From NCBI GenBank assembly GCA_965223255.1, contig CBDCWA010000004.1, positions 1,611,514 to 1,675,513 of the forward strand: 64,000 nucleotides of DNA, written 5' to 3'. The translations under genes were made by a program, and so were the position numbers. How positions within the stretch are numbered: the stretch's first letter is position 1; every line of letters begins with the position of its first letter. Shown here piece by piece: positions 4,080 to 20,049 of this stretch. The stretch is from Hyphomicrobiaceae bacterium. Lineage in GTDB: Bacteria; Pseudomonadota; Alphaproteobacteria; Rhizobiales; Hyphomicrobiaceae. The notes beneath the pieces are model-generated. The model was given only the letters and a program-made list of their open reading frames with translations. It did no database searches and was not told the DNA's origin.

Positions 4080-4787
4080 TTGGTTGATGTGAGGTTGCTT
4101 GTGAGACGCTTACTGCTGGTCGCTCTATCTGTTCTGGCCGTAGCTGGTGTAGTCTATTGGGCGATCGATTCAAATGGACTACAGCGAAGCGCCGTTATAG
4201 AGGATCCGGTCAAGAACTTAGATCGAACGGGGCTGTCAGTCGCAACGTTTGCAGGCGGGTGTTTTTGGTGTGTCGAAGCAGCTTTCGAGGCCGTGCCGGG
4301 CGTTCGCGCGGCAGTATCCGGCTATTCTGGTGGTGTTATTAAGAATCCGACATACAAAATGGTCACGCGCGGCCTGACTAAGCACGCGGAGTCGGTGCAA
4401 GTCTATTACGACCCAACGATAATAACATATAAAGGGTTACTGCAGGTGCTATGGCGCAGCTCTGATCCTACAGACGATCGGGGCCAGTTTTCTGACAGGG
4501 GCAGCCACTACCGGCCAATCATTTTCTATCACGATAAAGAACAGCAGCGCATAGCCATTCGTGCACGTGACGAACTCTCAAAATCTGGACGTTTCAGCAA
4601 ACCGATCAAGGTCGAGATCGTCGCATTCAAAGCATTCTATCCAGCCGAAGCCTATCACCAGGATTATTATCGGAAGAACCCGGGTTACTACCAGATTTAT
4701 AATATAGGGTCAGGCCGGGTCGATTTTCTGACCAAAACATGGGGCGATGATCTCAAGGTCGACTATGCTAAATACCGACCCCAATGA
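4080..4787 (+). CDS. msrA: peptide-methionine (S)-S-oxide reductase MsrA with N-terminal transmembrane anchor
   Basis: It carries the catalytic GGCFWCVEAAFE motif, YHQDYY and overall MsrA collinearity. The first ~30 aa (LLVRRLLLVALSVLAVAGVVYWAI) form a hydrophobic anchor. The start is a non-ATG codon (TTG). Confidence 0.9.
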   Translation: MVDVRLLVRRLLLVALSVLAVAGVVYWAIDSNGLQRSAVIEDPVKNLDRTGLSVATFAGGCFWCVEAAFEAVPGVRAAVSGYSGGVIKNPTYKMVTRGLTKHAESVQVYYDPTIITYKGLLQVLWRSSDPTDDRGQFSDRGSHYRPIIFYHDKEQQRIAIRARDELSKSGRFSKPIKVEIVAFKAFYPAEAYHQDYYRKNPGYYQIYNIGSGRVDFLTKTWGDDLKVDYAKYRPQ

Positions 4788-5147
4788 AATCAGCTAACAG
4801 ATTTCCACCTTTCCCTACGACACGGATTATCAAGGAACGTGGCGCCAATGGATGTGGCGAACAAACGTAACTTGACCAGGTCTCTATTGTTCCGATCGGC
4901 GATCAATCTCGCGCGGCTTTTTTCTTGCACCATTGAAATGCCCCGCCGGCTTTGCGCAGAAATGCGGTCGGACACCGCCCCATATGACAGCGTTTGCCGC
5001 TGTATTGGCTGAACAATTCCGCCTGCAGACCGAGCGCGCTGGCTGCAAGTATATCGTAACGGCCGGTTCTTGGGTGGCACACATATTGCAACAAAATGGT
5101 GGTCTTAACGTAAACCGCTAAGTTAACTGAAAGCTTTGGAGGACGAG

Positions 5148-5618
5148 ATGGGAACATGGTTGATTGATCGCCGCTTGCTGGGGGTTGTCCTTGCCAGCCT
5201 GGTATTGTTGGTCGTGCCTGGTATGAGCGCGCAGGCTAAAAATGAGGCGATGGCCTCTTACCGGGCTTCTATTATGCAGAGTCTGAATGGGCACGTTGCG
5301 GCCATCGGCGCGATTGTCGATGAAAAGGTCGCCTTTAGGCATCACCTCCTTGATCACGCGGTCGCAATCGTTGGCACAAGCCGCGGTTTGCTGGAAATTT
5401 TCCCCGAGAAGGTAAAGAAAAAGACCGCTGAAAAATCCAAGGCGAATGGCAAGAAGTCAAAGTCTTCTCCTTCCTTCGAGGCTCTGGCTACGGAATTCAA
5501 TCTGGCGGCTGCACATTTGGTTCAGGTGATTCCATCGGGGAACAAGGCAGCCATCAAACAACACTTTGCAAAACTGAAAACAGTGTACGGAAAGCTTCAG
5601 GAGCAAACGAAGAAATAG
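5148..5618 (+). CDS. secreted helical protein (four-helix-bundle / cytochrome b562-like guess), Lys-rich insert
   Basis: GGAGGA lies 5-6 nt upstream of the ATG at 5148. The signal peptide ends in SAQA. Helical heptad-like content is present and there is no CxxCH. The function is not established. Confidence 0.55.
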   Translation: MGTWLIDRRLLGVVLASLVLLVVPGMSAQAKNEAMASYRASIMQSLNGHVAAIGAIVDEKVAFRHHLLDHAVAIVGTSRGLLEIFPEKVKKKTAEKSKANGKKSKSSPSFEALATEFNLAAAHLVQVIPSGNKAAIKQHFAKLKTVYGKLQEQTKK

Positions 5619-6305
5619 GTACCCGCCAAGAGCGATGCAAAGTAGTTTCAAAGCCGATCAGGCCAAGGGACCCTACCCTTGGCCTGCCAAAATGTCGGAG
5701 TAGATTTATTGTGGGTAGAGGAATCCGTGCCGGCGAAGCTGGTAAGAACGCGGGCTGCGACAAGCCTGCAATGGAGTTGAAGCAGCTGGACACAAAGCCA
5801 GTCAATTTATCGGATCAGGCGCAGTCGCAGATTAACTTTGTCCACTCTGACAAACAACAAACAAGTGGCACGGCGGACCAATGCGTGCCGTCGCATCAAC
5901 ACAAGCTGAGCATTTAATTCCCATGGTCAACGAGCGCTTTCGAAGGGCGCTTCCATTGTGTGGCGCAGGTGTCCGATTGCTTGATTGACCGGAGCCCCAT
6001 GCGTTCCATGGGTGTGATTCAACAGCTGACAACTAACATAGATAACATAGACGAATTTTTGCCTATTCGGCTCAAGTATCCGACATGCATGGGTTTTGCC
6101 AATTTGTCAGATGTAGGCCGCCCAACCTACGCATTGATAAATAATGTGAAAGTGCGGAGGTGGCCTGATATTTCCAAGTGCACCCAGACAAGATGGCAGC
6201 ATAGCTGCCACATCTGGCCGGTGTTGCTTGAGGCCGGAGTGGCTATTGTCTTGAATTTCCGGAAAAACCGAAGTTTTCCATTGCGAATCAATCAGTTGTA
6301 GCTTC

Positions 6306-6321
6306 TGGCACAGTCCTTGCA
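6306..6321 (+). promoter_or_regulatory. sigma-54 (-24/-12) promoter TGGCAC-AGTCC-TTGCA
   Basis: This is an exact match to the TGGCAC-N5-TTGCW consensus. It lies ~180 nt upstream of the Gly-Met-X gene and on the same strand. A sigma-54 activator is encoded in the same module. Confidence 0.8.
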
Positions 6322-6498
6322 AGCGGTTAATAGAACGTGATGCATTGGGAACGTTTTGTGAGGCCAGGACGCACAGCTGGGGGGTCTCATGTTCTGTAGT
6401 CAGTCAAGAGGCATCGGATTCGCCGCGGTTGTGAAGACGTGCCGCCAACCGAAGGAGCAGGATTAGCAATGGTAACGTTTCAAAAGGAGTTTGGTCGA

Positions 6499-7425
6499 AT
6501 GCGTGGCTACATGGCCGCGGCCGCGGTTATTGCAGCGGGCGTAATAACGGGTATGAGCAGCTCGGAAAGTACCGCGCAGGGCATGCGTGGCATGTACGGA
6601 ATGCCGGGTATGTACGGCATGGGCGGCATGCGCGGCATGCCTGGTATGGGCGGTATGTACGGCATGGGCGGCATGCGCGGCATGTACGGCATGGGTGGTA
6701 TGCGCGGCATGTACGGCATGGGCGGCGTGCGCGGCATGTACGGCATGGGTGGTATGCGAGGTCCAGCCGGCAGGTGGACTTGGGTGTGGGTGCCAGCTCC
6801 TACAAGCAGAATGAGAGGCATGTACGGTATGTACGGAATGCCGGGCATGTACGGCATGGGTGGCATGCGTGGTATGTACGGCATGTACGGAATGCCGGGT
6901 ATGTACGGCATGGGTGGCATGCGCGGTATGTACGGCATGGGCGGCATGCGCGGTATGTACGGTATGCGGGGCATGCCGGGCATGTACGGCATGGGCGGCA
7001 TGCGCGGTATGTACGGCATGGGCGGCATGCGCGGTATGTACGGTATGCGGGGCATGCCGGGCATGTATGGCATGTATGGAATGCCGGGCATGTACGGCAT
7101 GGGCGGCATGCGCGGTATGTATGGCATGGGCGGTATGCGCGGTATGTACGGTATGCGTGGCATGCCCGGTATGGGTGGCATGTACGGCATGTACGGAATG
7201 CCGGGCTTGTACGGCATGGGCGGCATGCGCGGCATGCGCGGTATGTACGGCATGGGCGGCATGGGCGGTATGTACGGCATGCGCGGAATGCCAGGTATGG
7301 GCGGCATGTATGGCATGCGCGGCATGCCGGGTATGGGCGGTATGCGTGGCATGCCCGGAACGCGAAGCTGGGCTCCTCCGCAACCACCGCAGACTCCGCC
7401 ACCGGCGCAGAAGAAGCCGAGCTAA
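6499..7425 (+). CDS. secreted hyper-methionine (Gly-Met-X)n repeat protein, collagen-like Gly periodicity
   Basis: The track ORF is 6439..7425. I prefer the ATG at 6499 because AAGGAG lies 9 nt upstream; ATG 6469 is an alternative. The signal peptide is MRGYMAAAAVIAAGVITGMSSSESTA/QG. After it come 20 and then 60 G-M-X triplets, followed by a Pro-rich tail. The gene shares strand and operon context with the downstream genes. Confidence 0.7.
   Translation: MRGYMAAAAVIAAGVITGMSSSESTAQGMRGMYGMPGMYGMGGMRGMPGMGGMYGMGGMRGMYGMGGMRGMYGMGGVRGMYGMGGMRGPAGRWTWVWVPAPTSRMRGMYGMYGMPGMYGMGGMRGMYGMYGMPGMYGMGGMRGMYGMGGMRGMYGMRGMPGMYGMGGMRGMYGMGGMRGMYGMRGMPGMYGMYGMPGMYGMGGMRGMYGMGGMRGMYGMRGMPGMGGMYGMYGMPGLYGMGGMRGMRGMYGMGGMGGMYGMRGMPGMGGMYGMRGMPGMGGMRGMPGTRSWAPPQPPQTPPPAQKKPS
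6580..6759 (+). repeat. coding tandem repeat block 1: 20 x 9-nt GGN-ATG-NNN triplet units
   Basis: Hand parse gives GMR GMY GMP GMY GMG GMR GMP GMG GMY GMG GMR GMY GMG GMR GMY GMG GVR GMY GMG GMR. Confidence 0.9.
6817..7356 (+). repeat. coding tandem repeat block 2: 60 x G-M-X units with a higher-order 9-triplet (81-nt) unit
   Basis: 59 of the 60 triplets have Met at position 2 (the exception is GLY). The unit GMG GMR GMY GMG GMR GMY GMR GMP GMY recurs at 6907, 6988 and, as a variant, 7096. Confidence 0.9.
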
Positions 7426-7629
7426 GAGGGCATGGATTTTATGTGATGACAATGTGGGTGCCGGTGGGCAAAGACAGTGCACGCGCACAATGCCCCACCG
7501 GCCTCCGCAAAAACAACCCATCGCATCGTTTCGCTCGTCAACTAACAGCAGTCAAAATCACTTATACCGTGAACCGTTGATTTGATTTTGGGTGCGGTGA
7601 GATTTTCAGAATCTGTGCGGGGGAGGTGA

Positions 7630-8220
7630 ATGTCAGACAGTACTGAGAGCTACAGCGAGGCTGAAGCGTCGTCTCCAATAGAAGAGGCGCGAGCGAAGCC
7701 TATGAAACGAGAAGCATTCAACCAAATTGCTCCGTTTCTTGTCGCTGTCGCAGTCACCGCAGGCATTATAATGGTCTCCGTGGGGGTATCGAAAAAGCAG
7801 CCGGAGCTCGAGCCAGGTCCAAGCAAAGACATCGGCCGACCTGCGGCTCCGCTGTCAAGCGCGAAAGTGCCCGCCGCAAAAGGGCCGGCCGCCACTGCAC
7901 CAAAAGATCCGCAAGTGAGAACGACACCACCAAAGGAGACGGCTTCCCGGCCCTCGAAAGTAGAACCAGTAAAATCCGAATCATCATCGACTGTTAAGAG
8001 TCTTTTTGTCGGCGGTGCAGCACCGAGTAGACGTCCCTCTGATGCTCCGTCGATCAAAGACCTTGCAAAGGACGCCGATTGGTATGCGCGTGCACTTACC
8101 GGCCTCGCAAAGCCCTACCCGCGCAGCTTCAAGTTTTTGGAAGACCAAGGTGCTTGGTATACGCCCTTCAACAAGCGCGGAATGACTGGCCCTTACGACA
8201 TTAGGAGTTGGCATGAATAA
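7630..8220 (+). CDS. single-pass membrane protein with Pro/Ala/Ser/Lys-rich linker and conserved C-terminal module (unassigned)
   Basis: GGGAGG sits upstream of the ATG. The protein has an acidic N-terminus, one TM helix (IAPFLVAVAVTAGIIMVSVGV), a low-complexity linker and a C-terminal ~70 aa paralogous to the C-terminus of the next gene. Confidence 0.7.
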   Translation: MSDSTESYSEAEASSPIEEARAKPMKREAFNQIAPFLVAVAVTAGIIMVSVGVSKKQPELEPGPSKDIGRPAAPLSSAKVPAAKGPAATAPKDPQVRTTPPKETASRPSKVEPVKSESSSTVKSLFVGGAAPSRRPSDAPSIKDLAKDADWYARALTGLAKPYPRSFKFLEDQGAWYTPFNKRGMTGPYDIRSWHE

Positions 8221-9046
8221 GAACACTGGGATGCAACAAATAGCACAGCCATTCACAAATCATGCGTGGCGACCAATGGGCGTCACTGCAATCAAATCCT
8301 TGATTCCAGAAGCGTCGCTCATAGCATCTCTATTGTGGGCAAGTCTGTTCATGATCGGCGTCGCCGACGCGCGCGCTGAAGGCGATATTGAGCAGGGCAA
8401 GAGAGTATTCAGGCTCTGCATCGCCTGCCATAAGATTGGGCCAGGGGCGAGAAACCTGAGCGGGCCAAAACTCAATGGCATTGTTGGCCGAAAGGCCGGC
8501 ACCGTTGAGGGGTTCAAGTATTCTCCCGCCAACAAGAAGGCTGGCGAACAGGGATGGATTTGGACCGAACAGGCATTGGATAAATATTTGGAGAACCCGC
8601 GCAAGGCGATGCCTGGCAATCGGATGGTGTTCATCGGGATAAAAAGCGCGAAGGATAGAAAGAATCTCATCGCTTATCTCAAGTCATTCAAGTCAAGTCA
8701 GCACCGCGGGACGACCAAGACCATGGACGCCGCATCAGCACCGGTCCAGCCGGGGGCTAAAACAAAGCGTTCGGCGAAGGCCGAGCGCGGGGGCAAATCC
8801 CAACCCAAACGGACGACGTCAGTCATATGGGTCGGTGGATCAACCCCGTCCAAACGGCCACCCGCCGCACCGCGCCTGAGAAGCTTCGAGAAGACGCCTG
8901 CCTGGTACCGCCGTGCTCTGGCAGGCCTGTCGAAGCCCTATCCGCCGAGCTTCCGGTTCCTCGAGGATCAAGGTGCTTGGTACACACCATTCAATAGCTC
9001 GGGCATGACAAGCCCTTACGATCTGCGCGCTTGGCATAAAAGTTAG
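8213..9046 (+). CDS. class I c-type cytochrome (c2-like) with N-terminal signal/anchor and the same C-terminal module
   Basis: An ATGAATAA overlap links it to the previous gene. It has a CIACH haem motif and a PGNRMVF distal Met region, typical of c2/c550 cytochromes. Its C-terminus is paralogous to 8002..8217. Confidence 0.8.
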   Translation: MNKNTGMQQIAQPFTNHAWRPMGVTAIKSLIPEASLIASLLWASLFMIGVADARAEGDIEQGKRVFRLCIACHKIGPGARNLSGPKLNGIVGRKAGTVEGFKYSPANKKAGEQGWIWTEQALDKYLENPRKAMPGNRMVFIGIKSAKDRKNLIAYLKSFKSSQHRGTTKTMDAASAPVQPGAKTKRSAKAERGGKSQPKRTTSVIWVGGSTPSKRPPAAPRLRSFEKTPAWYRRALAGLSKPYPPSFRFLEDQGAWYTPFNSSGMTSPYDLRAWHKS

Positions 9047-9116
9047 CTTCGCGCAGTGGGTGCCGACGGAGCCCCGGCGCGGTGTGAGAAACAGCATAAG
9101 AATATGAGATAAGAAG

Positions 9117-9977
9117 ATGATGCACAGAACGCTAACCTTGGCAGTGAGTTGCCTGTCCGTCGTTCTTGTCACAGGCAGCATTTATTCGTTTGCATGGTCA
9201 GAGAGTGGCACACGCAAGGGCGATTATGCTGCTGCGGTATGGAACAAACTTCATTTCTCACCAGCCATTGATCGCGCAAGAGATGAGCAGTGCCTTTCAT
9301 GCCATAGCGAGATCCTCAAGCAAAAAGTGCGCACCAAGTCTCCCGCCGGGATAAAGGCGAAAGATTCAATTGCTTGGTATCAGGCAATGGATACGTACAC
9401 AGGAGATCAAGAAACGTTTCATTGGCGGCATATTTCTTCGCCTTTTGCAAAGGCTGTCATGAAGCTGTCGTGCAATTTCTGTCACCGTGGACACGATCCG
9501 CGTGAAGAGGCGCCAGGCTCGAGTGCAACCGCACCGCAAATTGGCAAAGCGACTGGGTTTGCCTTGCGCAAGACGGTTGATCCTTCGCAAACGTGCCTCA
9601 AGTGCCATGGCAGCTTTCCCTATAAGATCATGCAATTGCCGGGACCTTGGCACGAAGTGCGACCGTTAATGGAGTCACCGGAAATAAAAAACGGCTGCCT
9701 AGGCGCTTGTCACAAGGTAGCATTCCGCACCAATCGCCATAACGTGACCTATCTCAATCGCGACAAGATAGAGGAATTGTCCAAGGACAACTCGGACACG
9801 TGCTTTGGCTGTCATGGCGGAAGGGCATGGTACCGGAATTCCTACCCTTATCCGCGAAATCCCTGGCCCGGCATGGACAAAGAGATTCCAAAGTGGGCCA
9901 AGGATAGGCCCACCCAATCCGAAGCGCGCTTTCGCATTGGCGACAAACAAGGCGCCGCGGCTGGCAAGACGAAATAG
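9117..9977 (+). CDS. multihaem c-type cytochrome (4 CxxCH + 1 CxxxCH)
   Basis: The motifs are CLSCH, CNFCH, CLKCH, CFGCH and the variant CLGACH. The N-terminal hydrophobic segment could be a signal peptide or an anchor. A NapC/TorC-like quinol-dehydrogenase role is only a guess. Confidence 0.8.
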   Translation: MMHRTLTLAVSCLSVVLVTGSIYSFAWSESGTRKGDYAAAVWNKLHFSPAIDRARDEQCLSCHSEILKQKVRTKSPAGIKAKDSIAWYQAMDTYTGDQETFHWRHISSPFAKAVMKLSCNFCHRGHDPREEAPGSSATAPQIGKATGFALRKTVDPSQTCLKCHGSFPYKIMQLPGPWHEVRPLMESPEIKNGCLGACHKVAFRTNRHNVTYLNRDKIEELSKDNSDTCFGCHGGRAWYRNSYPYPRNPWPGMDKEIPKWAKDRPTQSEARFRIGDKQGAAAGKTK

Positions 9978-10012
9978 CGGGCACGGCAGCAAAGTGTTGG
10001 AGGCAAAACCAT

Positions 10013-12547
10013 ATGAGTGTGAAGATTGACGTCCTCAGATCAGCTTTAAACCTGACGCGCCGCCGTTTCGTGCAACTGTCGGCGGCAAGTGCAGCCGCCG
10101 GTGCGGCAGGGCTTAAGCCGGAGCAGGCACAGGCGTTCGCCTATGAACCATATCCGACTGACGACGAGCTGACGACGATAGTAACAAGCTGCGCGCATAA
10201 TTGCGGATCGCGTCACGCACTCGTTGCACACAAGAAAGGTGATGTAATTGTCAGGCTGTCATCGGATGACGGACGCTATCAGAAGGATGGAGAATACGGC
10301 AAGGATACAGAGGACGAGCCGCAGGTGCGCGCCTGTCTGCGCGGACGGTCGTATCGTTCGCGGCTCTACTCGGCAGAGCGCCTGCTCCATCCCATGATTC
10401 GGGTCGGAGCGCGCGGTGAAGGGAAATTCAAACGCGCCTCCTGGGATACGGCGTTGGACTACATTGCCGAGCGCATAGTGAACATTAAGAATACCTATGG
10501 GCCAACTGCAATCCTGGACCAAAGCTATGCCGGCGCCTCATGGGGCGTCTTGCATCGCTCGGATCAGATCGAGGGGCTATTAGGGCGCTTTCTCGGCATT
10601 TTCGGTTGCCGCACGACGTCCTGGTCCGTGCCTTCGTATCAGGGAACGACTTTTTCGTCAGAAACGACCTTTGGCACGATTGAGGATGGAAATGAGGATG
10701 ATACGTTTGCCCACTCCAAGCTGATGATCATGTGGGGCTGGAATCCGGCCTACACATTTCATGGCGGCAATACATTCTACTATATGCGACTTGCAAAGCA
10801 GCGCGGATGCAAATTTGTCTTGGTGGACCCGCAATACACAGATTCAGCGGCCTCCTATGATGCCTGGTGGATTCCAATTCGGCCTAATACGGATGCGGCA
10901 ATGCTCGCGGCAATGGCCCACTATATCTTTGTCAACAAACTTCAAGATCAGAGCTTCATCAATCGCTTCTGCCTTGGCATGGACGCGGGCACAATGCCGG
11001 CATTCGCCACCGACCAGGAAAATTTCAGAGACTACATTCTTGGCAGGTATGACGGTCAACCTAAGTCTCCGGAATGGGCGCAAGAGATCTGTGGTGTAAA
11101 GGCCGATGACATCAAGAAGCTCGCGCGGATGTATGCGACGACAAAGCCAGCGGCATTGAAAGCAAGCTGGGCGCCAGGGCGATGCGCATACGGCGAACAG
11201 TATAGCAGGATGGCCGCGGCCCTTCAGGCAATGACCGGAAACATCGGTGTCTTGGGCGGCAGTGCTGAAGGCGTCGGCAAGGCCTGGAAAGCACAGGCTG
11301 CTGCGGGACCGGTAGATCAATACGCCAACATACATGCCGCTGCGATCAAGTCAGATAGATGGGCCGACTGCGTCCTTAATTACCCAAATGTGCGCCGCGA
11401 AGATGTCGGCTTGTGGCCGAAGTCGGGCGCCATGGATGGGGTAATACCGAATATTCGAGCGATTTGGTGGCAAGCGTCCGACTGGTTTAACCAGCTCCCC
11501 AACATCAACAAACAAATAGAAGCGATCCAAAAGCTTGATCTCGTCGTCTGCCAAGATTCGACCATTACGCCATCTGGGATATGGGCCGATGTGCTTCTGC
11601 CGGTTGCTACCCACTTCGAGCGCCACGATGTGGCCCTGCCTTGGTACAAGGGCCACTACTATATTCATAGGCCGAAGGTGATCGAGCCGCTTGGAGAAAG
11701 CAAGACCGACTGGCAGATTTTCACCGAGCTCGCGTTCCGACTCGGATTTGGCAAGACCATGAATCCACTTGCCTCCCGCGACTATTTCCACAACGATGAT
11801 GCGACCGACGAGGCGTATCTCAGGGATTGGTGGGAAAAGCGCGTCATGGGGTATCAAGGAGTTACGATGCCCTGGGATGAGTTCAAGAAACGCGGCATCT
11901 ACAAATTCCGACTGGACAAGCCCCATGTTGCCTTTCGCGAGCAGATTGAGGAGGGCAAACCATTCAAGACCACCTCCGGCAAGATCGAGATATTCTCTAT
12001 CAAACTATCGAACATTAAGGACTTTCGCCAAACGCAGTTTGGTTATCCTATCCCCGCAATCCCAAAATGGATTGAGCCATGGGAAGGCAGGCGCGATCCA
12101 AAGGTGCGCCAATATCCATTCCAGATGATCACGCCACACCCACGTTGGCGAACGCACTCAATATTCAACAACATCGGGTGGCTTCGGGAGACCTATGAGC
12201 AGGAAGTGACAATCAATGCGGACGATGCCGAGAAGCTCGGCATTAAGACAGGGGACAACGTCTACATCTGGAATGAGCGAGGCGCGACGGTGACACCAGC
12301 CTATGTGACACAACGACTGATGCCGGGCGTCGTTGTGCTTTACGAAGGCGCTTGGATGGATCGGGACACAAAGGGTATCGACCGGTCCGGCAATCCGGAT
12401 TTCCTGACCCTGGATGCGCCCAGCCCTGCAGGGGCATTTGCATACAATACGCTGTTGGTAAACATGCAGAAGACCGATCTGCCGCATCGACCCGGCTGGG
12501 ACAAGCTCGCAACGGCACGCAGCCACGTCTTCCGGCGTGACAATTGA
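10013..12547 (+). CDS. Tat-exported molybdopterin oxidoreductase catalytic subunit, DMSO reductase family (DmsA-like)
   Basis: GGAGG RBS. The twin-arginine motif is TRRRFVQLSAASAAAGA. The N-terminal FS0-type motif is C-AHN-C-GSR-H ... QVRACLRGRS. As far as I recall E. coli DmsA, the protein is collinear with it (e.g. RVGARGEGKFKRASW). Length is 844 aa. Confidence 0.85.
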   Translation: MSVKIDVLRSALNLTRRRFVQLSAASAAAGAAGLKPEQAQAFAYEPYPTDDELTTIVTSCAHNCGSRHALVAHKKGDVIVRLSSDDGRYQKDGEYGKDTEDEPQVRACLRGRSYRSRLYSAERLLHPMIRVGARGEGKFKRASWDTALDYIAERIVNIKNTYGPTAILDQSYAGASWGVLHRSDQIEGLLGRFLGIFGCRTTSWSVPSYQGTTFSSETTFGTIEDGNEDDTFAHSKLMIMWGWNPAYTFHGGNTFYYMRLAKQRGCKFVLVDPQYTDSAASYDAWWIPIRPNTDAAMLAAMAHYIFVNKLQDQSFINRFCLGMDAGTMPAFATDQENFRDYILGRYDGQPKSPEWAQEICGVKADDIKKLARMYATTKPAALKASWAPGRCAYGEQYSRMAAALQAMTGNIGVLGGSAEGVGKAWKAQAAAGPVDQYANIHAAAIKSDRWADCVLNYPNVRREDVGLWPKSGAMDGVIPNIRAIWWQASDWFNQLPNINKQIEAIQKLDLVVCQDSTITPSGIWADVLLPVATHFERHDVALPWYKGHYYIHRPKVIEPLGESKTDWQIFTELAFRLGFGKTMNPLASRDYFHNDDATDEAYLRDWWEKRVMGYQGVTMPWDEFKKRGIYKFRLDKPHVAFREQIEEGKPFKTTSGKIEIFSIKLSNIKDFRQTQFGYPIPAIPKWIEPWEGRRDPKVRQYPFQMITPHPRWRTHSIFNNIGWLRETYEQEVTINADDAEKLGIKTGDNVYIWNERGATVTPAYVTQRLMPGVVVLYEGAWMDRDTKGIDRSGNPDFLTLDAPSPAGAFAYNTLLVNMQKTDLPHRPGWDKLATARSHVFRRDN

Positions 12548-13233
12548 TGATTGGGGACACAGATATGGCAAAGGCGCCGATTGACAAGAAGAAGATAAAG
12601 AACGCGGTAAAACGCAAGAAACAAGACGTTTACAAGCCAGTGGTTCCCCACCAACAGCTCGGGTTTATCCATAACAATGTCGATTGTATCGGGTGCAGGG
12701 CTTGCGAGATTGCTTGTAAGGATAAGAATGGGTTAGCACCCGGACCAAGATTCCGCAGAGTACAATATATCGAGGGTGGCACATATCCCGAGGTGTTTGC
12801 ATACAAGGTAAATATGTCGTGCAATCACTGCGCTGAACCTGCCTGCCTTCCCGCCTGTCCCACCGGCGCGATCTACAAACGGAAAAAGGATGGTATTGTC
12901 GACATTGACTCGACGTTGTGCATCGGATGCCGGCGCTGCGAGGCCACATGCCCCTACGGCGCACCGCAATACATCCCTGATCAAAATATCGTTTCTAAGT
13001 GTAATATGTGCGTGGATGAGATTGATGCCGGTCGTAAGCCCTATTGCGTGATGGCCTGCATGATGCGCGTGCTCGATATTGGTCCGATAGACAAATTGCG
13101 TGATGGGACTTGGGACACTAAAGCCAAGGCAAAGCAGGAGAAAGTTGTACGTCAGGTGCAGAATATGGCGGATCCGGAGCTAACCAATCCATCGATCGTA
13201 TTCGTCGCGCATAGCAAGGGCAAAGTGAAATAG
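12544..13233 (+). CDS. 4x[4Fe-4S] ferredoxin-type electron-transfer subunit (DmsB-like)
   Basis: Four Cys clusters are present (CIGCRACEIAC, CNHCAEPACLPACP, CIGCRRCEATCP, CNMCVDE...CVMAC). The start overlaps the stop of the A subunit (TTG 12544 / ATG 12547). ATG 12565 with a GGGGA RBS is an alternative start. Confidence 0.85.
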   Translation: MMIGDTDMAKAPIDKKKIKNAVKRKKQDVYKPVVPHQQLGFIHNNVDCIGCRACEIACKDKNGLAPGPRFRRVQYIEGGTYPEVFAYKVNMSCNHCAEPACLPACPTGAIYKRKKDGIVDIDSTLCIGCRRCEATCPYGAPQYIPDQNIVSKCNMCVDEIDAGRKPYCVMACMMRVLDIGPIDKLRDGTWDTKAKAKQEKVVRQVQNMADPELTNPSIVFVAHSKGKVK

Positions 13234-13302
13234 GCGGTATGCTGCCGTGTTCGTGAACCACCCTGCGCCTTTTCCAATGCGCACTCACCTAGAGCGTTTC
13301 AA

Positions 13303-14130
13303 GTGCACAAACCTATCAGAGGTGCCCACCATGCTGGCCCTAGCCAGCATGCAGGGCGGGAGAATTCATTCGTGCAAGACCATGGACAAAGCGAAGCTGA
13401 ACTTCTTGCTGCTTTCAGAGAGTCGGTCGATGATGACCTGAAGTTGATTGCAGCACTGCACGATCGCGAGATCGATGCACCTGCGATCGCGCAGCTCAAA
13501 CAACTGAGGTTTCCCAGTGGCCTCGGTTTTAATCTGTCAAAGTCGGCAGCGAAACAAGCCCAACGACAAATGATCGATGCTCTTGCGGATCTGCCGGATG
13601 TACCCGATCAAGCGCTTCTCGATGAACTCGCCGTCGATTTTGCAGCAATCTATCTGACCTATCGCTACCGGGCCGCGCCAACGGAATCCGTGTGGCTCGA
13701 TAAGGACCATCTCGAGCGCCAGCAACCTATGTTTCAGACCCGAGCCGCCTACCGCCGAAGAGGTCTGAAGGTCGTCAACTGGAACGTGAGGTCTGAAGAT
13801 CACCTGGTCACTCAACTGCTTTTTGTGGCGCATTTGATTGGCGAATGTCGCGACGAAGTGGCGCTAGCGGATGCTGCAGCGTTCCTTGACCAGCACTTGC
13901 TCCGTTGGATTGACATCTTCGCCTTGAGTGTAGCGCAACGTTGCAGCGCTCGTTTTTATAGCGCCCTCGGCTCGCTGACAGCTGCCTATTTGGACGAGCT
14001 GCGCGATGTTCTCGCAGAGATCCTGGATGAACCGCGACCCCAAATCGTAACAGCCGATCAGATTCTGCAGCCACCCGACGAAGCCGAGCAGCACACTCCA
14101 ATCGCACCGGCCGTTGGTCCAAGCTGGTGA
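13303..14130 (+). CDS. TorD/DmsD-family redox enzyme maturation chaperone
   Basis: The EDHL-type motif (SEDHLVTQLLFVAHL) and helical layout are typical of the TorD family. It sits immediately after the A and B subunits. The GTG start is uncertain. Confidence 0.65.
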   Translation: MHKPIRGAHHAGPSQHAGRENSFVQDHGQSEAELLAAFRESVDDDLKLIAALHDREIDAPAIAQLKQLRFPSGLGFNLSKSAAKQAQRQMIDALADLPDVPDQALLDELAVDFAAIYLTYRYRAAPTESVWLDKDHLERQQPMFQTRAAYRRRGLKVVNWNVRSEDHLVTQLLFVAHLIGECRDEVALADAAAFLDQHLLRWIDIFALSVAQRCSARFYSALGSLTAAYLDELRDVLAEILDEPRPQIVTADQILQPPDEAEQHTPIAPAVGPSW

Positions 14131-14151: not shown

Positions 14152-15534
14152 TTAGTCGCTGCGTTCACTAACGCTAAGTCCATGCTTCTTGAGCAACCTG
14201 TACGTGTTGCGCTCGCTTATTCCCAATACTTCAGCAATCCGCGAGCGATGTCCGCCGTATTTTACGACCAATCTAGCCAGGTAATCTCGCCGGATTTCCT
14301 CTAACGTTGGCTCGTGATCAAACATGAACGCCGCCGTTTCACAACGAGACGACTGAGCGCTGGGTGGAGCACTCAACCCCAGGTGCCGTGCTCGGATAGT
14401 AACGTCGTCGCCAGATACCAGGATTGCCCGCTCTATGACGTTTCTAAGCTCGCGAACATTGCCTGGCCATGAGTATGCGGTAAGCACCTCAATGGCATCC
14501 TTGCTCAATATCTTCTGCCGGGCGCGCTGAAAAGATCTGGTATCCAAAAACAGCTCTGACAGCACCGCGATGTCCTCGCGCCGCTGTCGCAGCGGTGGTA
14601 CACTGATCACAACTGTAGCCAAGCGATAGTAAAGGTCAGATCGAAATCGTCCCTCGTCGATGGATGCTATAAGGTCACGATTAGTTGCAGCGACGATGCG
14701 CGCGTCACTGATTATCTTCTGGGTGCCGCCGACGCGCCGAAATTCTCCGGTCTCAAGCACGCGCAGTAGTTTTGCCTGCATCGACGCAGGCAATTCGCCG
14801 ATTTCGTCAAGGAACAGTGTTCCGCCCTCGGCAATTTCGATCAAGCCCTGCTTGCGCCGGTCCGCTCCTGTAAATGCCCCTTTCTCGTGACCAAACAACT
14901 CCGATTCGAACAGCGTCTCTTGTAATGTCGTTGCATCCACAGGCACAAAGTTGGAATCCGCACGATCGCTCAGCTGGTGAATGGCTTTTGCTACAAGCTC
15001 CTTGCCGACGCCACTTTCGCCCTCGATTAGAACCGTTGAATCGCTTGGTGCGACCAACTCAATAAGATGTGCCATTTCCTCAAAAGCATTGCTCCGTCCA
15101 ACCATAATCTTCTTGATGTTGGGATTTAGTTGTTCTCGGCAATACTGGTAGCTGCGCCTCAAGGAGCTGTTTTCCAATGCTCGGCCAATAGCAAACTCCA
15201 GTTCGGACGGATTGATCGGTTTCGTCAGATAGTCAACCGCACCAGACCGGATAGCTTCGACTGCATGCCGAATGCTTCCGTACGCCGTCAGAACGAGCAC
15301 AGGGCATTGAGCTGAAAGTTCCGGCAAACACTGGATACCATCGATGTCGGGAAGTCTGATATCGAGGAGAGCAAGAGCGGGATCATGAGTCTCCAGCGTC
15401 ACCTTGGCTTCCTCCCATGAATAGACGCCAGTTGGCTGATAGCCCATCGCCCGCAGTTGTTCGATCAGAAAATGATTAAGTGCCTTGTCGTCCTCTATGA
15501 CAAGAAGATGCTTACCTTTCTTTCTTTGCGTCAT
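14152..15534 (-). CDS. sigma-54-dependent response regulator (NtrC family enhancer-binding protein)
   Basis: It has a receiver domain (LDIRLPDIDG), an AAA+ Walker A (GESGVGKE), the GAFTGA sigma-54 contact loop and a C-terminal Fis-type HTH. Confidence 0.9.
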   Translation of the reverse strand: MTQRKKGKHLLVIEDDKALNHFLIEQLRAMGYQPTGVYSWEEAKVTLETHDPALALLDIRLPDIDGIQCLPELSAQCPVLVLTAYGSIRHAVEAIRSGAVDYLTKPINPSELEFAIGRALENSSLRRSYQYCREQLNPNIKKIMVGRSNAFEEMAHLIELVAPSDSTVLIEGESGVGKELVAKAIHQLSDRADSNFVPVDATTLQETLFESELFGHEKGAFTGADRRKQGLIEIAEGGTLFLDEIGELPASMQAKLLRVLETGEFRRVGGTQKIISDARIVAATNRDLIASIDEGRFRSDLYYRLATVVISVPPLRQRREDIAVLSELFLDTRSFQRARQKILSKDAIEVLTAYSWPGNVRELRNVIERAILVSGDDVTIRARHLGLSAPPSAQSSRCETAAFMFDHEPTLEEIRRDYLARLVVKYGGHRSRIAEVLGISERNTYRLLKKHGLSVSERSD

Positions 15535-17435
15535 GATAGTTCTTTCGCTACTTCTGCAGAAGGCAATGTGACAACGAATCTAGTCCCCTCACCAACCACG
15601 CTCGTCACATCTAACCTGCCGCCGCTTCGTTTGACTATTTCTTGGCATATTGAAAGCCCAAGCCCTGTTCCGTGAACGCCGTCGGCACGTTTACTCCAGA
15701 AGGGATCGAATATTTTGGCGAGATCGCTCTTCTTGATCCCCACGCCAGTGTCCTCAAAGACCAGCTCGACCACATCTTCGCAGACTGAGCCCGAAACCAG
15801 CAGGCGCCCGCCATCAGGCATGGCATGCAGAGCGTTCTGTGCGATGTTTAGCACCATCATTCTCATCTCGCTGTCGGAGCCGATTGATCTGAGTTCACTC
15901 TCAAGATCCATCGATATGTCGACCTCTGACTTCAGTGCCTCAGCGTTGAGTAGGGAGAGAACCTCGAACACGACGTTGTTGAGATTTACAAGTTCGCGGT
16001 GCTCGCTTGCTGGTGCGCTAAGCTTCAAAAGACGCGACGTAACTTCTATGCAGCGCGTTATCTGATCTTCGATAATGTCAAGATACTTGCTTGCCTTCTC
16101 GTCCCGACCCTCCCGTAGAGCTCTTTTCGCTGAGTCGAAGCCCAAAAGTATGGACGCAAGAGGGTTGTGAATCTCGTGTGCAACACCCGCGGCCAGGAAG
16201 CCAATTTCCGACAGCCGCTGCTCTTGCGATAGCCGCACGTCCTTGCTCAGGTCTCTAATGACCTCCACAACGAATTTTTTTTGCGTGTCGTCAATAGTGA
16301 TTTCAAGCAGCGCTGCTGAGACCTCGACCGGGATTTCTTTCTCATCGGCGCTCACATGAGAATGCCGACAAGTCAAGACCTGCCCTCCTTTCTGCAGTTC
16401 ATGCAGCGGACAGCTGACCAAGCTCGCTGGGCAAGGCGATTCACGAGAATGGCTGGACCAATAGCAGGGTCGCTGTACCACCTCAGACCGCGCGCGATGC
16501 TGTTGTTCGCAGAATGCGCGGTTAGCCTTGACGACCTGATAGTTCATGTCGATCACGCGCACTCCATCGGGCATTATGTCGATCAGGTCCTGCAAATACC
16601 GCTCTCTGGTCTCTATATTGTGTACAGCTTGAGCGATACGAGCGGACATGTCGTTAAAGGCACGTCCAAGCCGCCCAATCTCATCGGAGCTTTTTAGCGG
16701 CACACGGTGACCCAGTTGGCCCAGCGACATCTTATCCGCTGCCTCGGTCAGTCCTTTCACAGGTGCGAGCACGAACCAGTTAAGCAGAAATCCGATGCCA
16801 CCAATGGTAGTCAGCACGACTGCTATTCCGGCACCACTCAGCATCAATACTGCAAACATTGTGTCGCGTCTGATGTTCGTTGCGTCATAGTCAACGACGA
16901 GAATTCCGTTTATTGGGTGGGTATCAATCTGGCCATGGCATTTAGTGCATGGGCCGCGGTTGCGGACCGGGTTTATGCTGCGCAGAATGTCACCAGCAAC
17001 GGCGTCCGCAACGAAGGCCGAACGGGGCCCGTGCCCTTTTATTGTTGCCTTGCAGTCTGGGCACAACTCACCTGCTTCGAGATCAAAACGTCGGCCAAGC
17101 TGTATCTTGTTGCTCGCAAATCTGACTTCACCATTCGGCGCAAGAATCATGACACCGGAAATATTCTCCTGTTCACCCAATCGTTCGACCATTTTCCTCA
17201 GGCCAACGATGTCACGATTGAGCATCGCATTCTCAAGCCCCAGCTGCAGCAGGCGGTTGACCTCCGTGGATGCTGCGCTGCGTTCCCTCAGGATTTGATC
17301 ACGATAGGAGAGAATGACCAACGCAAGGAAACAGATCGATGCAAACGTTAGGCTTGCGACAAGGATCAGGGTTATTTTCCGCCTTAGGCTTGCAGCAGAC
17401 CACCTGGCTAGGTCATTCCATAACTGTCCCATCAT
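15531..17435 (-). CDS. sensor histidine kinase: periplasmic Cys/haem-motif domain, HAMP, PAS, HisKA, HATPase
   Basis: Two TM helices flank a ~150-aa loop containing CPDCK and CTKCH. It also has a HAMP domain, a Cys-rich PAS-like domain, the H-box GVAHEIHNPL, and G-boxes DTGVGI and GTGLGLS. There are 4-nt overlaps with both neighbouring genes. Confidence 0.9.
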   Translation of the reverse strand: MMGQLWNDLARWSAASLRRKITLILVASLTFASICFLALVILSYRDQILRERSAASTEVNRLLQLGLENAMLNRDIVGLRKMVERLGEQENISGVMILAPNGEVRFASNKIQLGRRFDLEAGELCPDCKATIKGHGPRSAFVADAVAGDILRSINPVRNRGPCTKCHGQIDTHPINGILVVDYDATNIRRDTMFAVLMLSGAGIAVVLTTIGGIGFLLNWFVLAPVKGLTEAADKMSLGQLGHRVPLKSSDEIGRLGRAFNDMSARIAQAVHNIETRERYLQDLIDIMPDGVRVIDMNYQVVKANRAFCEQQHRARSEVVQRPCYWSSHSRESPCPASLVSCPLHELQKGGQVLTCRHSHVSADEKEIPVEVSAALLEITIDDTQKKFVVEVIRDLSKDVRLSQEQRLSEIGFLAAGVAHEIHNPLASILLGFDSAKRALREGRDEKASKYLDIIEDQITRCIEVTSRLLKLSAPASEHRELVNLNNVVFEVLSLLNAEALKSEVDISMDLESELRSIGSDSEMRMMVLNIAQNALHAMPDGGRLLVSGSVCEDVVELVFEDTGVGIKKSDLAKIFDPFWSKRADGVHGTGLGLSICQEIVKRSGGRLDVTSVVGEGTRFVVTLPSAEVAKELS

Positions 17436-19148: not shown

Positions 19149-19164
19149 TGCAACTCCTGTGCCA
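19149..19164 (-). promoter_or_regulatory. sigma-54 (-24/-12) promoter TGGCAC-AGGAG-TTGCA (minus strand)
   Basis: This is an exact consensus match on the minus strand. It lies 66-156 nt upstream of the polyferredoxin start candidates. Confidence 0.8.
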
Positions 19165-20049
19165 TCACCAATACTCTTTGGCGTCCTGTGTCGACGGCTC
19201 GGCAGATAGCCTTTCAGCGCCGTGACTTGGGCAGGAGGAGCACTGAGGCTGACAAATTGTCATGGGTCGGAGGCGCTGAATATGCCAGTCTGTCAGGTCT
19301 GCGCCAAGCATGTTTGATGCTAGTCTCGGATCGACCATATCGAGTGTCTGGAGTCTCTCCGAAAGAGGGGTCCAATAGATCGGTCTTAGCTATGCCCGAC
19401 AACTGGAGGGCAAATATTTGGGGGCAGACCAACCATCGGATATGCGACGACATTTTGCCGAGTTAGCGAAAGCTTCGCAGCAAGAACGCACGAGCTTCTG
19501 TGCTGCCCACTGAGAGCGGACATCACCCGGCGTGGGGCTGACATCGCGGTGGGGGCAAACGAGAAAGTCACACTGAAGCATTGGCTTACAGCCATGGATG
19601 GATGAGCTGGACCGATCGGTACAATTGTAGCTAATGTCCCACTTGGCGTTCAGGACCAGTTCCATCACCAGCAAGTGCCGGCAGTTAGTCTCGATTTGAT
19701 GAGAATTCCTCGTCAATATCGATGAGCCGGCGCCAGAGCATACAAGCGCGGTGCACGAACACGACGCCAGATCAGACACTTGCACTTCCTTTCCATACGG
19801 CCCCGGCACGCTTCTTTTGATCGAGTCGGGAATCAAATGCCATACGCATCGTAGGCTTTGCTCATGGAGCGCGGGCAGTCATGCCAAGTATTTGGCAAGA
19901 TTTGACGCACATCAAAAACTACGCGCAAGACTTGCATGGAACTTGCATGGAAAGAGCAAATTGCCTGCAGAAGTGGAGAGAGCCGTTGGTCCATGATGGT
20001 GATGTGCAGGCCCGTCGCAAAGGGACGGCTCATTTTAGGAGGAAGTAAG

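What the first reader, a model, noticed from the sequence alone, without database searches (positions are those of the whole stretch)
6194..6321. Perfect sigma-54 promoter plus upstream palindrome and IHF-like site in front of the Gly-Met-X operon
TGGCAC-AGTCC-TTGCA at 6306..6321 matches the -24/-12 consensus at every conserved position. About 100 bp upstream lies the palindrome TGGCAGC-ATA-GCTGCCA (6194..6210), a plausible activator-binding site. AATCAATCAGTTG (6286..6298) fits the IHF consensus WATCAANNNNTTR but sits unusually close to the -24 element. The long (~800 bp) non-coding leader region upstream is also unusual for this window.
Basis: seen in the sequence. Interest (0 to 1): 0.7.

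Follow-up and report, generated by a model that had tools for sequence, protein, structure and literature searches.

The report
Real sigma-54 promoter, different enhancer sites

Summary
All three sequence features are at the stated coordinates. The -24/-12 element (6306-6321) is well supported. Perfect TGGCAC-N5-TTGCW occurs 3 times in the window against 0.09 expected. All three copies lie around the window's only enhancer-binding protein gene. A similar element sits in front of the orthologous operon in about 40 related loci from Alpha-, Beta- and Gammaproteobacteria.

The IHF-like core (6286-6298) is also supported. It recurs with the same 7-nt gap to TGGCAC in two close relatives. Perfect cores occur in 7 of 45 family promoters against 0.5% of shuffled segments. 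The arrangement is common in metagenomes, so it is not unusually close.

The palindrome (6194-6210) is not supported as the activator site. Perfect 7-nt-arm palindromes occur about once per kb here, and none of 80+ related loci has a counterpart.

The conserved upstream site is a 13-bp inverted repeat, cTG(A/C)CA-WWW-TG(G/T)CAg. A matrix built only from relatives puts its five best hits in the window at 19250, 6097, 19283, 5685 and 6186, all upstream of the promoters at 6306 and 19164. The site at 6186-6198 overlaps the palindrome's left arm and lies 120 nt from -24, as in the closest relatives.

This is a textbook kind of circuit and a new member of it. No experiment was possible.

The parts
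6306..6321 (+). Sigma-54 -24/-12 promoter element P2 (cTGGCAC-AGTCC-TTGCA). GG is at 6307-6308 and GC at 6319-6320.
   Evidence: Searches give the perfect consensus: 3 perfect hits in the window against 0.09 expected. It ranks 3rd of 128,000 positions with a matrix built from relatives' promoters. Elements at the equivalent position occur in about 40 related loci.
6332..6498 (+). Predicted transcription start (about 6332, inferred from -24/-12 geometry) and a 167-nt 5' untranslated leader.
   Evidence: This is an inference from the position of GG and GC. There is no Rfam match. The fold is no more stable than shuffles, z = 0.10. The RBS AAGGAG lies at 6484-6489.
6286..6298 (+). IHF-like core AATCAATCAGTTG, 7 nt upstream of TGGCAC. 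A-tracts lie 5' of it at 6261-6279.
   Evidence: L002 (AATCAATCAGTTA) and L184 (TTTCAACGCATTG) have the same 7-nt gap. Perfect cores occur in 7 of 45 family promoters against 0.5% of shuffles. The same arrangement gives 81 distinct metagenome matches whose free positions follow both consensus sequences.
6186..6198 (.). Promoter-proximal enhancer (UAS) candidate AGACA-AGA-TGGCA. It has one mismatch to TGNCA-N3-TGNCA and starts 120 nt upstream of the T of TGGCAC.
   Evidence: It is the 5th best matrix hit in the whole window. The same distance is seen in L184 (120) and L001 (121).
6097..6109 (.). Perfect enhancer (UAS) site TGCCA-ATT-TGTCA, 209 nt upstream of -24.
   Evidence: It is the 2nd best matrix hit in the window. 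L002 has a site at 193 and L001 one at 244.
5685..5697 (.). Distal UAS-like palindrome TGCCA-AAA-TGTCG, directly after the hairpin that follows the upstream gene. Its role is uncertain.
   Evidence: It is the 4th best matrix hit. A palindrome of this type lies 20-80 nt after the same gene's stop codon in L184, L001 and L002.
6194..6210 (.). Best read as two abutting half-sites: the right half of the 6186-6198 site, plus a lone cTGCCA whose partner TGGCC is displaced by 1 nt.
6499..14130 (+). The operon driven by P2. In order:
- secreted Gly-Met-X repeat protein (6499-7425, 26.6% Met);
- 196-aa protein (7630-8220);
- monohaem cytochrome c (8213-9046);
- tetrahaem cytochrome (9117-9977);
- Tat-exported DmsA-like molybdoenzyme (10013-12547);
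- DmsB-like 4Fe-4S subunit (12544-13233);
- TorD-like chaperone (13303-14130).
   Evidence: No + strand terminator-like site lies in the gaps between genes; the two + strand hits (9140, 12318) fall inside genes. No sigma-70-like promoter was found on the + strand.
14152..15534 (-). The only enhancer-binding protein gene in the window. Domains: receiver (D58), AAA+ with GAFTGA, and a C-terminal helix-turn-helix.
   Evidence: The recognition region LG(I/V)SER..YR is conserved in 44 orthologues. The EBP gene co-occurs with the UAS motif: 27 of 27 loci with the gene against 3 of 7 without.
15531..17435 (-). Partner sensor histidine kinase (HAMP-PAS-HisKA-HATPase) with a CXXCH haem-c motif in its periplasmic domain.
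   Evidence: The CXXCH motif is conserved in 47 of 48 orthologues.
19149..19164 (-). A second promoter of the same regulon, P3 (TGGCAC-AGGAG-TTGCA). It lies in front of the Fe-S protein / 176-aa protein / kinase / activator operon. Its UAS sites are at 19250-19262 and 19283-19295, 98 and 131 nt upstream.
   Evidence: L184 carries a module with the same 98/131 spacing.

Best explanation
The region 6097..6321 is the control region of a sigma-54-dependent promoter (P2). P2 transcribes the Gly-Met-X / cytochrome / DmsAB-like operon from about 6332.

Proposed mechanism:
1. RNA polymerase with sigma-54 sits at TGGCAC-N5-TTGCA (6306-6321) as a closed complex.
2. The neighbouring two-component activator (14152..15534) is phosphorylated by the adjacent kinase, which carries a haem-c motif.
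3. The activator binds 13-bp inverted repeats of the type cTG(A/C)CA-WWW-TG(G/T)CAg. Here these are 6186-6198 (one mismatch, 120 nt from -24) and 6097-6109 (perfect, 209 nt), and possibly 5685-5697.
4. An IHF-type protein bound at 6261-6298 (core 6286-6298) bends the DNA so that the activator oligomer touches the polymerase. ATP hydrolysis then opens the promoter.

The same activator also appears to drive its own operon from the promoter at 19164(-).

Its left arm is the right half of the 6186-6198 site, and its right arm is a lone half-site.

Shown here: the sequence motifs, their statistics, their conservation and their co-occurrence with the activator gene. Inferred: every binding event, the start site, RpoN and IHF dependence, and the inducing signal.
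For: **Promoter**
- The consensus is perfect, with 3 perfect sites against 0.09 expected.
- A matrix built from relatives' promoters ranks the three sites 1st to 3rd in the window.
- A -24/-12 element with at most 2 mismatches lies about 105-260 nt upstream of the first operon gene in about 40 related loci of three proteobacterial classes. These include the closest relative L184, with 90% DmsA and 80% activator identity.

**Activator**
- It is the only EBP gene in the window.
- It has GAFTGA, a Walker A motif, a receiver domain and a helix-turn-helix.
- The helix-turn-helix is conserved in 44 orthologues.

**UAS**
- TGNCA-N3-TGNCA occurs 7 times in the window against 1.44 expected.
- It occurs, usually in pairs, upstream of the promoters in relatives.
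- A matrix from 62 sites in relatives, with the window left out, places its five best window hits at 19250, 6097, 19283, 5685 and 6186. All lie in about 1 kb of regulatory DNA out of 64 kb.
- Distances to -24 cluster at 89-104, 120-127 and 153-171 nt. The window's 120 matches L184 (120) and L001 (121).
- The motif is present in 27 of 27 loci that hold the activator gene, and absent in 4 of 7 that do not.

**IHF**
- The consensus is perfect. L002 and L184 have the same 7-nt gap to TGGCAC. Family promoters are strongly enriched for the core.
Against: - There is no experimental datum.
- The proximal site has A in place of an otherwise invariant T, and scores 11.9 against 15-26 for typical sites.
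- The perfect site sits at an uncommon distance (209 nt).
- The intergenic DNA cannot be aligned even with the 90% relative, so conservation is at the level of motif and position, not nucleotide by nucleotide.
- The matrix was built from sites chosen by pattern near sigma-54-like sites. Its enrichment in relatives is therefore partly circular; the window test is independent.
- No rpoN or ihf gene is visible in the window, and the rest of the genome could not be searched.
- The third perfect promoter (5075) has no such site upstream, so the regulon boundary is unclear.
Confidence: 0.75

Rival explanations
1. One reading: the 17-bp palindrome TGGCAGC-ATA-GCTGCCA (6194-6210) is itself the dimer-binding site of the activator.
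For: It is a perfect inverted repeat 112 nt upstream of -24, within the distance range where family sites occur. Both arms contain the family half-site sequences TGGCA and TGCCA.
Against: - Such palindromes occur about once per kb in this window.
- It has no second copy in the window, including upstream of the co-regulated promoter at 19164.
- None of the 80 related loci has an exact copy, and matches with up to 2 mismatches fall mostly inside genes, none at the equivalent enhancer position. L184, the closest relative, has no counterpart at that position either.
- Its half-sites are in the opposite order (TGGCA...TGCCA) and 12 bp centre to centre. The conserved site has TGNCA...TGNCA 8 bp apart.
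Confidence: 0.12
2. The palindrome binds a different, genome-specific regulator (a repressor or co-activator) that modulates P2.
For: The repeat is perfect and lies inside a regulatory region. Its lack of conservation would fit a lineage-specific addition.
Against: It is no more than chance expectation. No candidate regulator gene is evident beside the operon. It has no second copy.
Confidence: 0.08
3. The palindrome is a second, weaker sigma-54 binding site, because it reads TGGCAG-N5-CTGCC with GG-N10-GC on both strands.
For: The GG and GC spacing is kept on both strands. Some relatives use CTGC or TGGCAG variants as their main promoter.
Against: With the family promoter matrix it ranks only 156th and 362nd in the window. 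No gene lies at a suitable distance on the minus strand.
Confidence: 0.03
4. The -24/-12 match is a chance or non-productive sigma-54 site, and the operon is transcribed from a sigma-70-type promoter.
For: Non-productive sigma-54 binding sites are known in E. coli (title and abstract of PMC4591121, listed).
Against: There are 3 perfect sites against 0.09 expected. The element is intergenic and correctly oriented. It is conserved in position across classes together with enhancer sites and an activator gene. The scan found no sigma-70-like promoter on the + strand between 4700 and 6600.
Confidence: 0.03

Closest known systems
NtrC-class two-component activation of sigma-54 promoters with an IHF bend (for example glnAp2/glnHp2 and nifH; named from general knowledge)
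   Same: - A -24/-12 element.
- A receiver-AAA+(GAFTGA)-HTH activator.
- Inverted-repeat enhancer sites about 90-250 bp upstream, often paired.
- An IHF consensus between enhancer and promoter.
- The activator's own operon is also under a sigma-54 promoter carrying the same sites.
   Different: - The enhancer sequence is cTG(A/C)CA-WWW-TG(G/T)CAg. The NtrC site recalled from memory is TGCACCA-N3-TGGTGCA.
- The kinase has a periplasmic CXXCH (haem-c) motif.
- The target is a periplasmic redox operon, not nitrogen assimilation.
- The activator scores below the curated cut-off of every named NCBIfam equivalog: AtoC, NtrC, ZraR and others.
AoxRS (AioSR) plus RpoN control of the arsenite oxidase operon aoxAB (PMC2848651)
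   Same: The operon is transcribed from a TGGCAC...TTGC promoter. A two-component system encoded next to it supplies the sigma-54 activator. In both cases the promoter motif is present in genomes that carry the two-component genes and absent in those that lack them (PMC2848651, read; here). That arsenite oxidase belongs to the same molybdoenzyme superfamily as the DmsA-like enzyme here is my own knowledge.
   Different: The enzyme here is DmsA/DmsB-like with c-type cytochromes. The leader is about 167 nt against 26 nt. The enhancer motif, the sensor and the signal are unknown here, and nothing has been tested experimentally.
LuxO binding site TTGCA-WWW-TGCAA (recalled from memory, not checked here)
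   Same: A 13-bp site made of two 5-bp inverted half-sites around a 3-bp A/T spacer, bound by a receiver-AAA+-HTH activator of sigma-54.
   Different: The half-site sequences differ. The activator here scores far below the LuxO model cut-off.
MrpX / YedY1 regulon of Azospira suillum (PMC4436054)
   Same: A secreted methionine-rich protein is encoded with a periplasmic molybdenum-dependent reductase under a dedicated stress-type regulator. In this window a PF01625 methionine sulfoxide reductase gene lies beside the cluster.
   Different: Regulation there is by the SigF/NrsF sigma/anti-sigma pair, here by sigma-54 plus a two-component activator. [quoted passage not shown] The methionine-rich protein here is a long (Gly-Met-X)n repeat. 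A function in oxidant scavenging is only a hypothesis for this operon.

Membership tests
Sigma-54 (-24/-12) promoter | GG and GC dinucleotides exactly 10 nt apart within TGGCAC-N5-TTGCW | tested here: met
   The match at 6306-6321 is perfect and is preceded by C, the Y of YTGGCAC. The consensus is as quoted in PMC2848651.
Sigma-54 (-24/-12) promoter | More frequent than chance, intergenic, and correctly oriented upstream of a gene | tested here: met
   There are 3 perfect sites against 0.09 expected. All three are intergenic and point at the next gene.
Sigma-54 (-24/-12) promoter | A cognate enhancer-binding protein with an AAA+ domain and the GAFTGA loop | tested here: met
   PF00158 at E = 2.9e-67. 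GAFTGA was read. It is the only such gene in the window.
Sigma-54 (-24/-12) promoter | Conserved at the equivalent position in orthologous operons | tested here: met
Sigma-54 (-24/-12) promoter | Start site about 12 nt downstream of GC; transcription dependent on RpoN and on the activator | not testable with these tools
   This needs 5'-RACE or dRNA-seq and mutants. No RpoN-box peptide is encoded in the window, and the rest of the genome was not available.
   It has no other copy with fewer than 2 mismatches in the window. There is no exact copy in 80 loci. None of the near matches lies at the equivalent enhancer position, and L184 has no counterpart.
   The window holds 66 perfect 7-nt-arm palindromes.
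Enhancer (UAS) of an NtrC-class activator: TGNCA-N3-TGNCA sites (6097, 6186) | An inverted repeat 80-250 bp upstream of -24 that is repeated, conserved across orthologous promoters, and co-occurs with the activator gene | tested here: met
Enhancer (UAS) of an NtrC-class activator: TGNCA-N3-TGNCA sites (6097, 6186) | Bound by the activator | not testable with these tools
   This needs EMSA or footprinting.
IHF binding site | Core WATCAANNNNTTR located between enhancer and promoter | tested here: met
   AATCAATCAGTTG at 6286-6298.
IHF binding site | Conserved in position in related promoters | tested here: met
   L002 and L184 have the same 7-nt gap. Cores are perfect in 7 of 45 family promoters and have at most 1 mismatch in 17 of 45, against 0.5% and 7% in shuffles.
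IHF binding site | An A/T-rich tract 5' of the core | tested here: inconclusive
   GGAAAAACC and AGTTTTCC lie at 6261-6279, but no scoring model was applied.
IHF binding site | IHF encoded in the genome and binding the site | not testable with these tools
   No HU/IHF-like motif was found in the window. The genome was not available, and binding needs EMSA.

The most novel reading that the evidence does not exclude
The promoter, its TGNCA-N3-TGNCA enhancers, the haem-c sensor kinase and the activator together form the switch of a widespread, uncharacterised periplasmic system. That system consists of a (Gly-Met-X)n protein, c-type cytochromes, a DmsAB-like reductase, and often MsrA nearby. It may act as a renewable methionine 'sponge' against oxidants, analogous to MrpX/YedY but with different proteins and a different regulator. 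The kinase haem would sense the oxidant or the redox state.
Probability: 0.3. Interest if true: 0.7.

Novelty: new member of a known kind. Interest (0 to 1): 0.35.

Why it matters
The circuit itself is textbook: sigma-54 promoter, upstream enhancer, IHF bend and a two-component activator. The value lies in three things.

1. It corrects where the activator should bind, which changes how footprinting probes and reporter mutations should be designed.
2. It defines a conserved enhancer motif and spacing for an unnamed activator family found in Alpha-, Beta- and Gammaproteobacteria, including lucinid clam symbionts (Candidatus Thiodiazotropha). A preprint on those symbionts cites an earlier report that DMSO reductase is among their most highly expressed genes (bioRxiv 10.64898/2025.12.05.692423); whether that is this same enzyme was not checked.
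3. It links that regulon to a kinase with a conserved periplasmic haem-c motif and to a methionine-rich repeat protein. This gives a concrete handle (promoter fusions) for finding the signal and function of an operon that is currently annotated only as 'DMSO reductase'.

Tried and rejected
- **RNA elements.** An Rfam scan of 4700-7000 at E<=1 found nothing. The 179-nt stretch from the predicted start into the first codons folds no better than shuffles, z = 0.10. A riboswitch or structured leader was therefore dropped.
- **Small ORFs in the intergenic region.** ORFs 5711-5917 and 5960-6301 have no tblastn match in any related locus and were treated as non-coding.
- **Nucleotide-level footprinting.** blastn of the intergenic DNA against relatives found only coding-sequence matches. 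A MAFFT alignment with the 90% relative L184 was essentially random. I switched to motif and position comparison.
- **Closer relatives.** A metagenome scan with the upstream PF01322 protein found no relative. Exact-protein look-ups of the window's own proteins were not on record. Contigs of the 85-89% relatives (L178-L183) break inside the Gly-Met repeat gene and lack the promoter.
- **Palindrome as a second sigma-54 site.** Rejected, because it ranks only 156th.
- **Enhancer for the promoter at 5075.** No TGNCA-N3-TGNCA site scores above -3 within 375 nt upstream, and no shared upstream motif is visible among four genomes.
- **Helical phasing.** Enhancer distances give Rayleigh p about 1e-5 at periods of 10.5-11.5 nt. 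The sites are not independent and the window's own sites are not informative, so this is not used as evidence.
- **Literature.** Three full-text searches found no description of this regulon or of the Gly-Met repeat proteins.

Full report
**1. The observation**

- TGGCAC-AGTCC-TTGCA at 6306-6321;
- TGGCAGC-ATA-GCTGCCA at 6194-6210;
- AATCAATCAGTTG at 6286-6298.

The next gene on the + strand is the Gly-Met-X ORF. Its most likely start is ATG 6499, nine nt after AAGGAG.

Their statistical weight differs.
- A perfect TGGCACN5TTGCW occurs three times in the window (5075+, 6306+, 19164-) against 0.09 expected. No shuffle reaches three.
- The IHF consensus occurs six times against 1.87 expected. 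It is therefore informative only because of where it lies.
- The palindrome is not unusual. The window holds 66 perfect palindromes with 7-nt arms and 0-7 nt spacers, about one per kb. The pattern has no near copy elsewhere.

**2. Context**

Downstream of 6306 lie, in order:
- a secreted protein that is 26.6% methionine, built of (Gly-Met-X) repeats;
- a 196-aa protein;
- a monohaem cytochrome c;
- a tetrahaem cytochrome;
- a Tat-signal DmsA-like molybdoenzyme;
- a DmsB-like iron-sulfur subunit;
- a TorD-like chaperone.

No + strand terminator-like site lies in the gaps between these genes, and no + strand sigma-70-like promoter was found.

Convergent to this operon lie an Fe-S protein gene, a 176-aa ORF, a HAMP-PAS histidine kinase and a receiver-AAA+-HTH activator. 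The activator has GAFTGA and is the only enhancer-binding protein gene in the window. This second operon is preceded by the perfect promoter at 19164(-).

The third perfect promoter (5075) precedes a PF01322 (cytochrome c'-like) gene.

**3. Related loci**

A genome-collection scan with the DmsA-like protein returned 80 loci at 74-86% identity from Alpha-, Beta- and Gammaproteobacteria. A closer one, L184, was reached through the protein cluster. It has 90% DmsA and 80% activator identity.

The block tetrahaem cytochrome / DmsA / DmsB / TorD / Fe-S protein / kinase / activator is syntenic in most of them. Proteins made of Gly-Met-X repeats are present in nearly all.

A -24/-12 element with at most 1-2 mismatches lies about 105-260 nt upstream of the first operon gene in about 40 loci. 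A matrix built from those promoters ranks the window's three sites first, second and third out of 128,000 positions. The sigma-54 promoter is therefore a conserved part of this gene cluster.

**4. The enhancer**

Its matches with up to 2 mismatches fall mostly inside genes, and none is at the equivalent enhancer position. L184 has none either.

What is conserved is a 13-bp inverted repeat, TGNCA-N3-TGNCA. Its consensus is cTG(A/C)CA-WWW-TG(G/T)CAg, and it is usually present in two copies. In the window the bare pattern occurs 7 times against 1.44 expected.

I built a weight matrix from 62 sites in relatives, leaving the window out, and scanned the whole window. The five best hits are 19250 (22.8 bits), 6097 (18.5), 19283 (18.4), 5685 (14.6) and 6186 (11.9). 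All lie upstream of the promoters at 6306 and 19164, in about 1 kb out of 64 kb.

Distances from the site start to the T of TGGCAC cluster at 89-104, 120-127 and 153-171 nt.
- Upstream of 6306 the sites are at 120 (AGACAAGATGGCA, one mismatch) and 209 (TGCCAATTTGTCA).
- The three closest relatives have sites at 120 (L184), 121 and 244 (L001), and 100 and 193 (L002).
- The promoter at 19164 has sites at 98 and 131. L184 carries a module with the same 98/131 spacing.

Two further observations tie the motif to the activator.
- The motif goes with the activator gene. It is present in 27 of 27 loci of at least 20 kb that encode the activator. It is absent in 4 of the 7 where the activator was not detected.
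- The activator's helix-turn-helix region LG(I/V)SER..YR is conserved in 44 orthologues.

The right arm, cTGCCA, is a family-type half-site. Its partner, TGGCC, is displaced by one nt.

I therefore read the palindrome as two abutting half-sites. It is not the recognition unit, because its half-site order and spacing (12 bp centre to centre) are the reverse of the conserved site (8 bp). As a sigma-54 site it ranks only 156th.

**5. The IHF-like site**

The same core with the same 7-nt gap to TGGCAC is found in L002 (AATCAATCAGTTA) and, with one mismatch, in L184 (TTTCAACGCATTG).

In 45 family promoters a perfect core lies within 75 nt upstream of -24 in 7 cases, and a core with at most one mismatch in 17. 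Composition-matched shuffles give 0.5% and 7%.

A metagenome scan for ATCAAT-N2-GTTR-N7-TGGCNC-N5-TTGC gave 97 stretches and 81 distinct sequences. None belongs to this operon family. Their unconstrained positions follow both consensus sequences:
- A in TGGCAC in 54 of 81;
- W before ATCAAT in 69 of 81;
- W after TTGC in 69 of 81.

So an IHF core 7 nt from the -24 element is a common natural arrangement.

From general knowledge, the consensus occupies the 3' part of a roughly 35-bp IHF site. On that basis the site would be centred near -50, which is ordinary.

**6. Mechanism**

Shown: the motifs, their statistics, their conservation and their co-occurrence. Inferred: everything else.

The most likely mechanism is the standard one.
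1. Sigma-54 holoenzyme forms a closed complex at 6306-6321.
2. The phosphorylated activator binds 6186-6198 and 6097-6109.
3. An IHF-type bend at 6261-6298 brings the activator to the polymerase.
4. Transcription starts near 6332, giving a 167-nt leader.

The leader shows no Rfam match and no unusual structure. The activator probably also drives its own operon from 19164.

The signal is unknown. The kinase's periplasmic domain has a CXXCH motif that is conserved in 47 of 48 orthologues, which suggests a haem-c redox or ligand sensor.

Several features make an oxidant-scavenging role like MrpX/YedY (PMC4436054) a reasonable hypothesis, though an untested one:
- the methionine-rich secreted protein;
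- the periplasmic DmsAB-type enzyme;
- a PF01625 methionine sulfoxide reductase gene beside the cluster here and in L001, L031, L071 and L184.

**7. Comparison and verdict**

In kind this is an NtrC-class sigma-54 circuit. The nearest described parallel for a molybdoenzyme operon is AoxRS/RpoN control of aoxAB (PMC2848651).

The activator scores below the cut-off of every named NCBIfam equivalog. Three full-text searches found no description of this regulon. It is a new member of a known kind.

The promoter, the activator gene and the IHF site hold up. The palindrome as the binding site does not, and the 880-bp stretch is upstream regulatory DNA, not a leader.

Noticed in passing
window 15531-17435 (-), residue 163 of the kinase: The sensor kinase has a CXXCH haem-c attachment motif in its periplasmic domain. 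The motif, LRS(I/V)NPVxNxxxCxxCHG, is conserved in 47 of 48 orthologues. The promoter is therefore probably fed by a haem-based periplasmic sensor.
   Followed up: partly
window 5075-5090 (+) and 5148-5618: A third perfect sigma-54 promoter precedes a PF01322 (cytochrome c'-family) protein that has no CXXCH motif. The promoter is conserved in L184, L001 and L002, but has no TGNCA-N3-TGNCA site upstream, so its activator is unknown.
   Followed up: partly
window 5685-5697; L184 5223; L001 5638; L002 5495: A TGNCA-N3-TGNCA palindrome lies 20-80 nt after the stop codon of the PF01322 gene in all four genomes. In L184 and L001 it forms the top of a long GC-rich hairpin. Whether it is a terminator, a distant enhancer, or both is unexplained.
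   Followed up: partly
window 19149-19295 (-): The operon for the Fe-S protein, the 176-aa protein, the kinase and the activator has its own perfect sigma-54 promoter, with two enhancer sites 98 and 131 nt upstream. This suggests autoregulation. L184 has a module with the same 98/131 spacing, but there it lies in front of a TorD-like gene.
   Followed up: partly
window 4080-4787 (+): A peptide methionine sulfoxide reductase gene (PF01625) with an N-terminal hydrophobic segment lies next to the cluster. A homologue lies near the cluster in L001, L031, L071 and L184.
   Followed up: partly
window 6499-7425 and nearly all of L001-L080: Secreted proteins made of (Gly-Met-X)n repeats, up to 20 Met per 60 residues, accompany the DmsAB-like genes in almost every related locus. 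They hit the Pfam collagen model. The opposite strand gives spurious long Pro-Met ORFs.
   Followed up: partly
window 7630-8220 and 8213-9046: The 196-aa protein and the 277-aa cytochrome c share a C-terminal domain of about 110 residues (51% identity) with no Pfam family. In most relatives a gene with this domain is the first gene after the sigma-54 promoter.
   Followed up: no
L018, L025, L041, L046, L055, L056, L071, L075 (about 1.3-1.5 kb upstream of the operon promoter where both were mapped): Gammaproteobacterial loci carry a second sigma-54 promoter in front of a secreted 250-400-aa protein with repeats of the form QGW...DGS(L/V)(I/L)(Y/F). All but L018 have a TGNCA-N3-TGNCA site 70-124 nt upstream of it. 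The protein's function is unknown.
   Followed up: no
L178-L183: Metagenome contigs of the closest relatives end inside the Gly-Met repeat gene. The repeats probably break short-read assemblies, which hides the promoter region in most public data.
   Followed up: no
window 6342-6356 and 6466-6480: A direct repeat lies in the predicted leader, 124 nt apart: GCATTGGGAACGTTT and GCAATGGTAACGTTT. The second copy overlaps the alternative ATG at 6469. It is unexplained.
   Followed up: no
window 10013-12547: The DmsA-like enzyme has a Tat signal (TRRRFVQ), and no membrane-anchor subunit of the DmsC type was recognised among the operon's genes. It scores below every NCBIfam cut-off yet is 74-90% identical across three proteobacterial classes. 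This points to a distinct, strongly conserved and probably horizontally spread subfamily.
   Followed up: no
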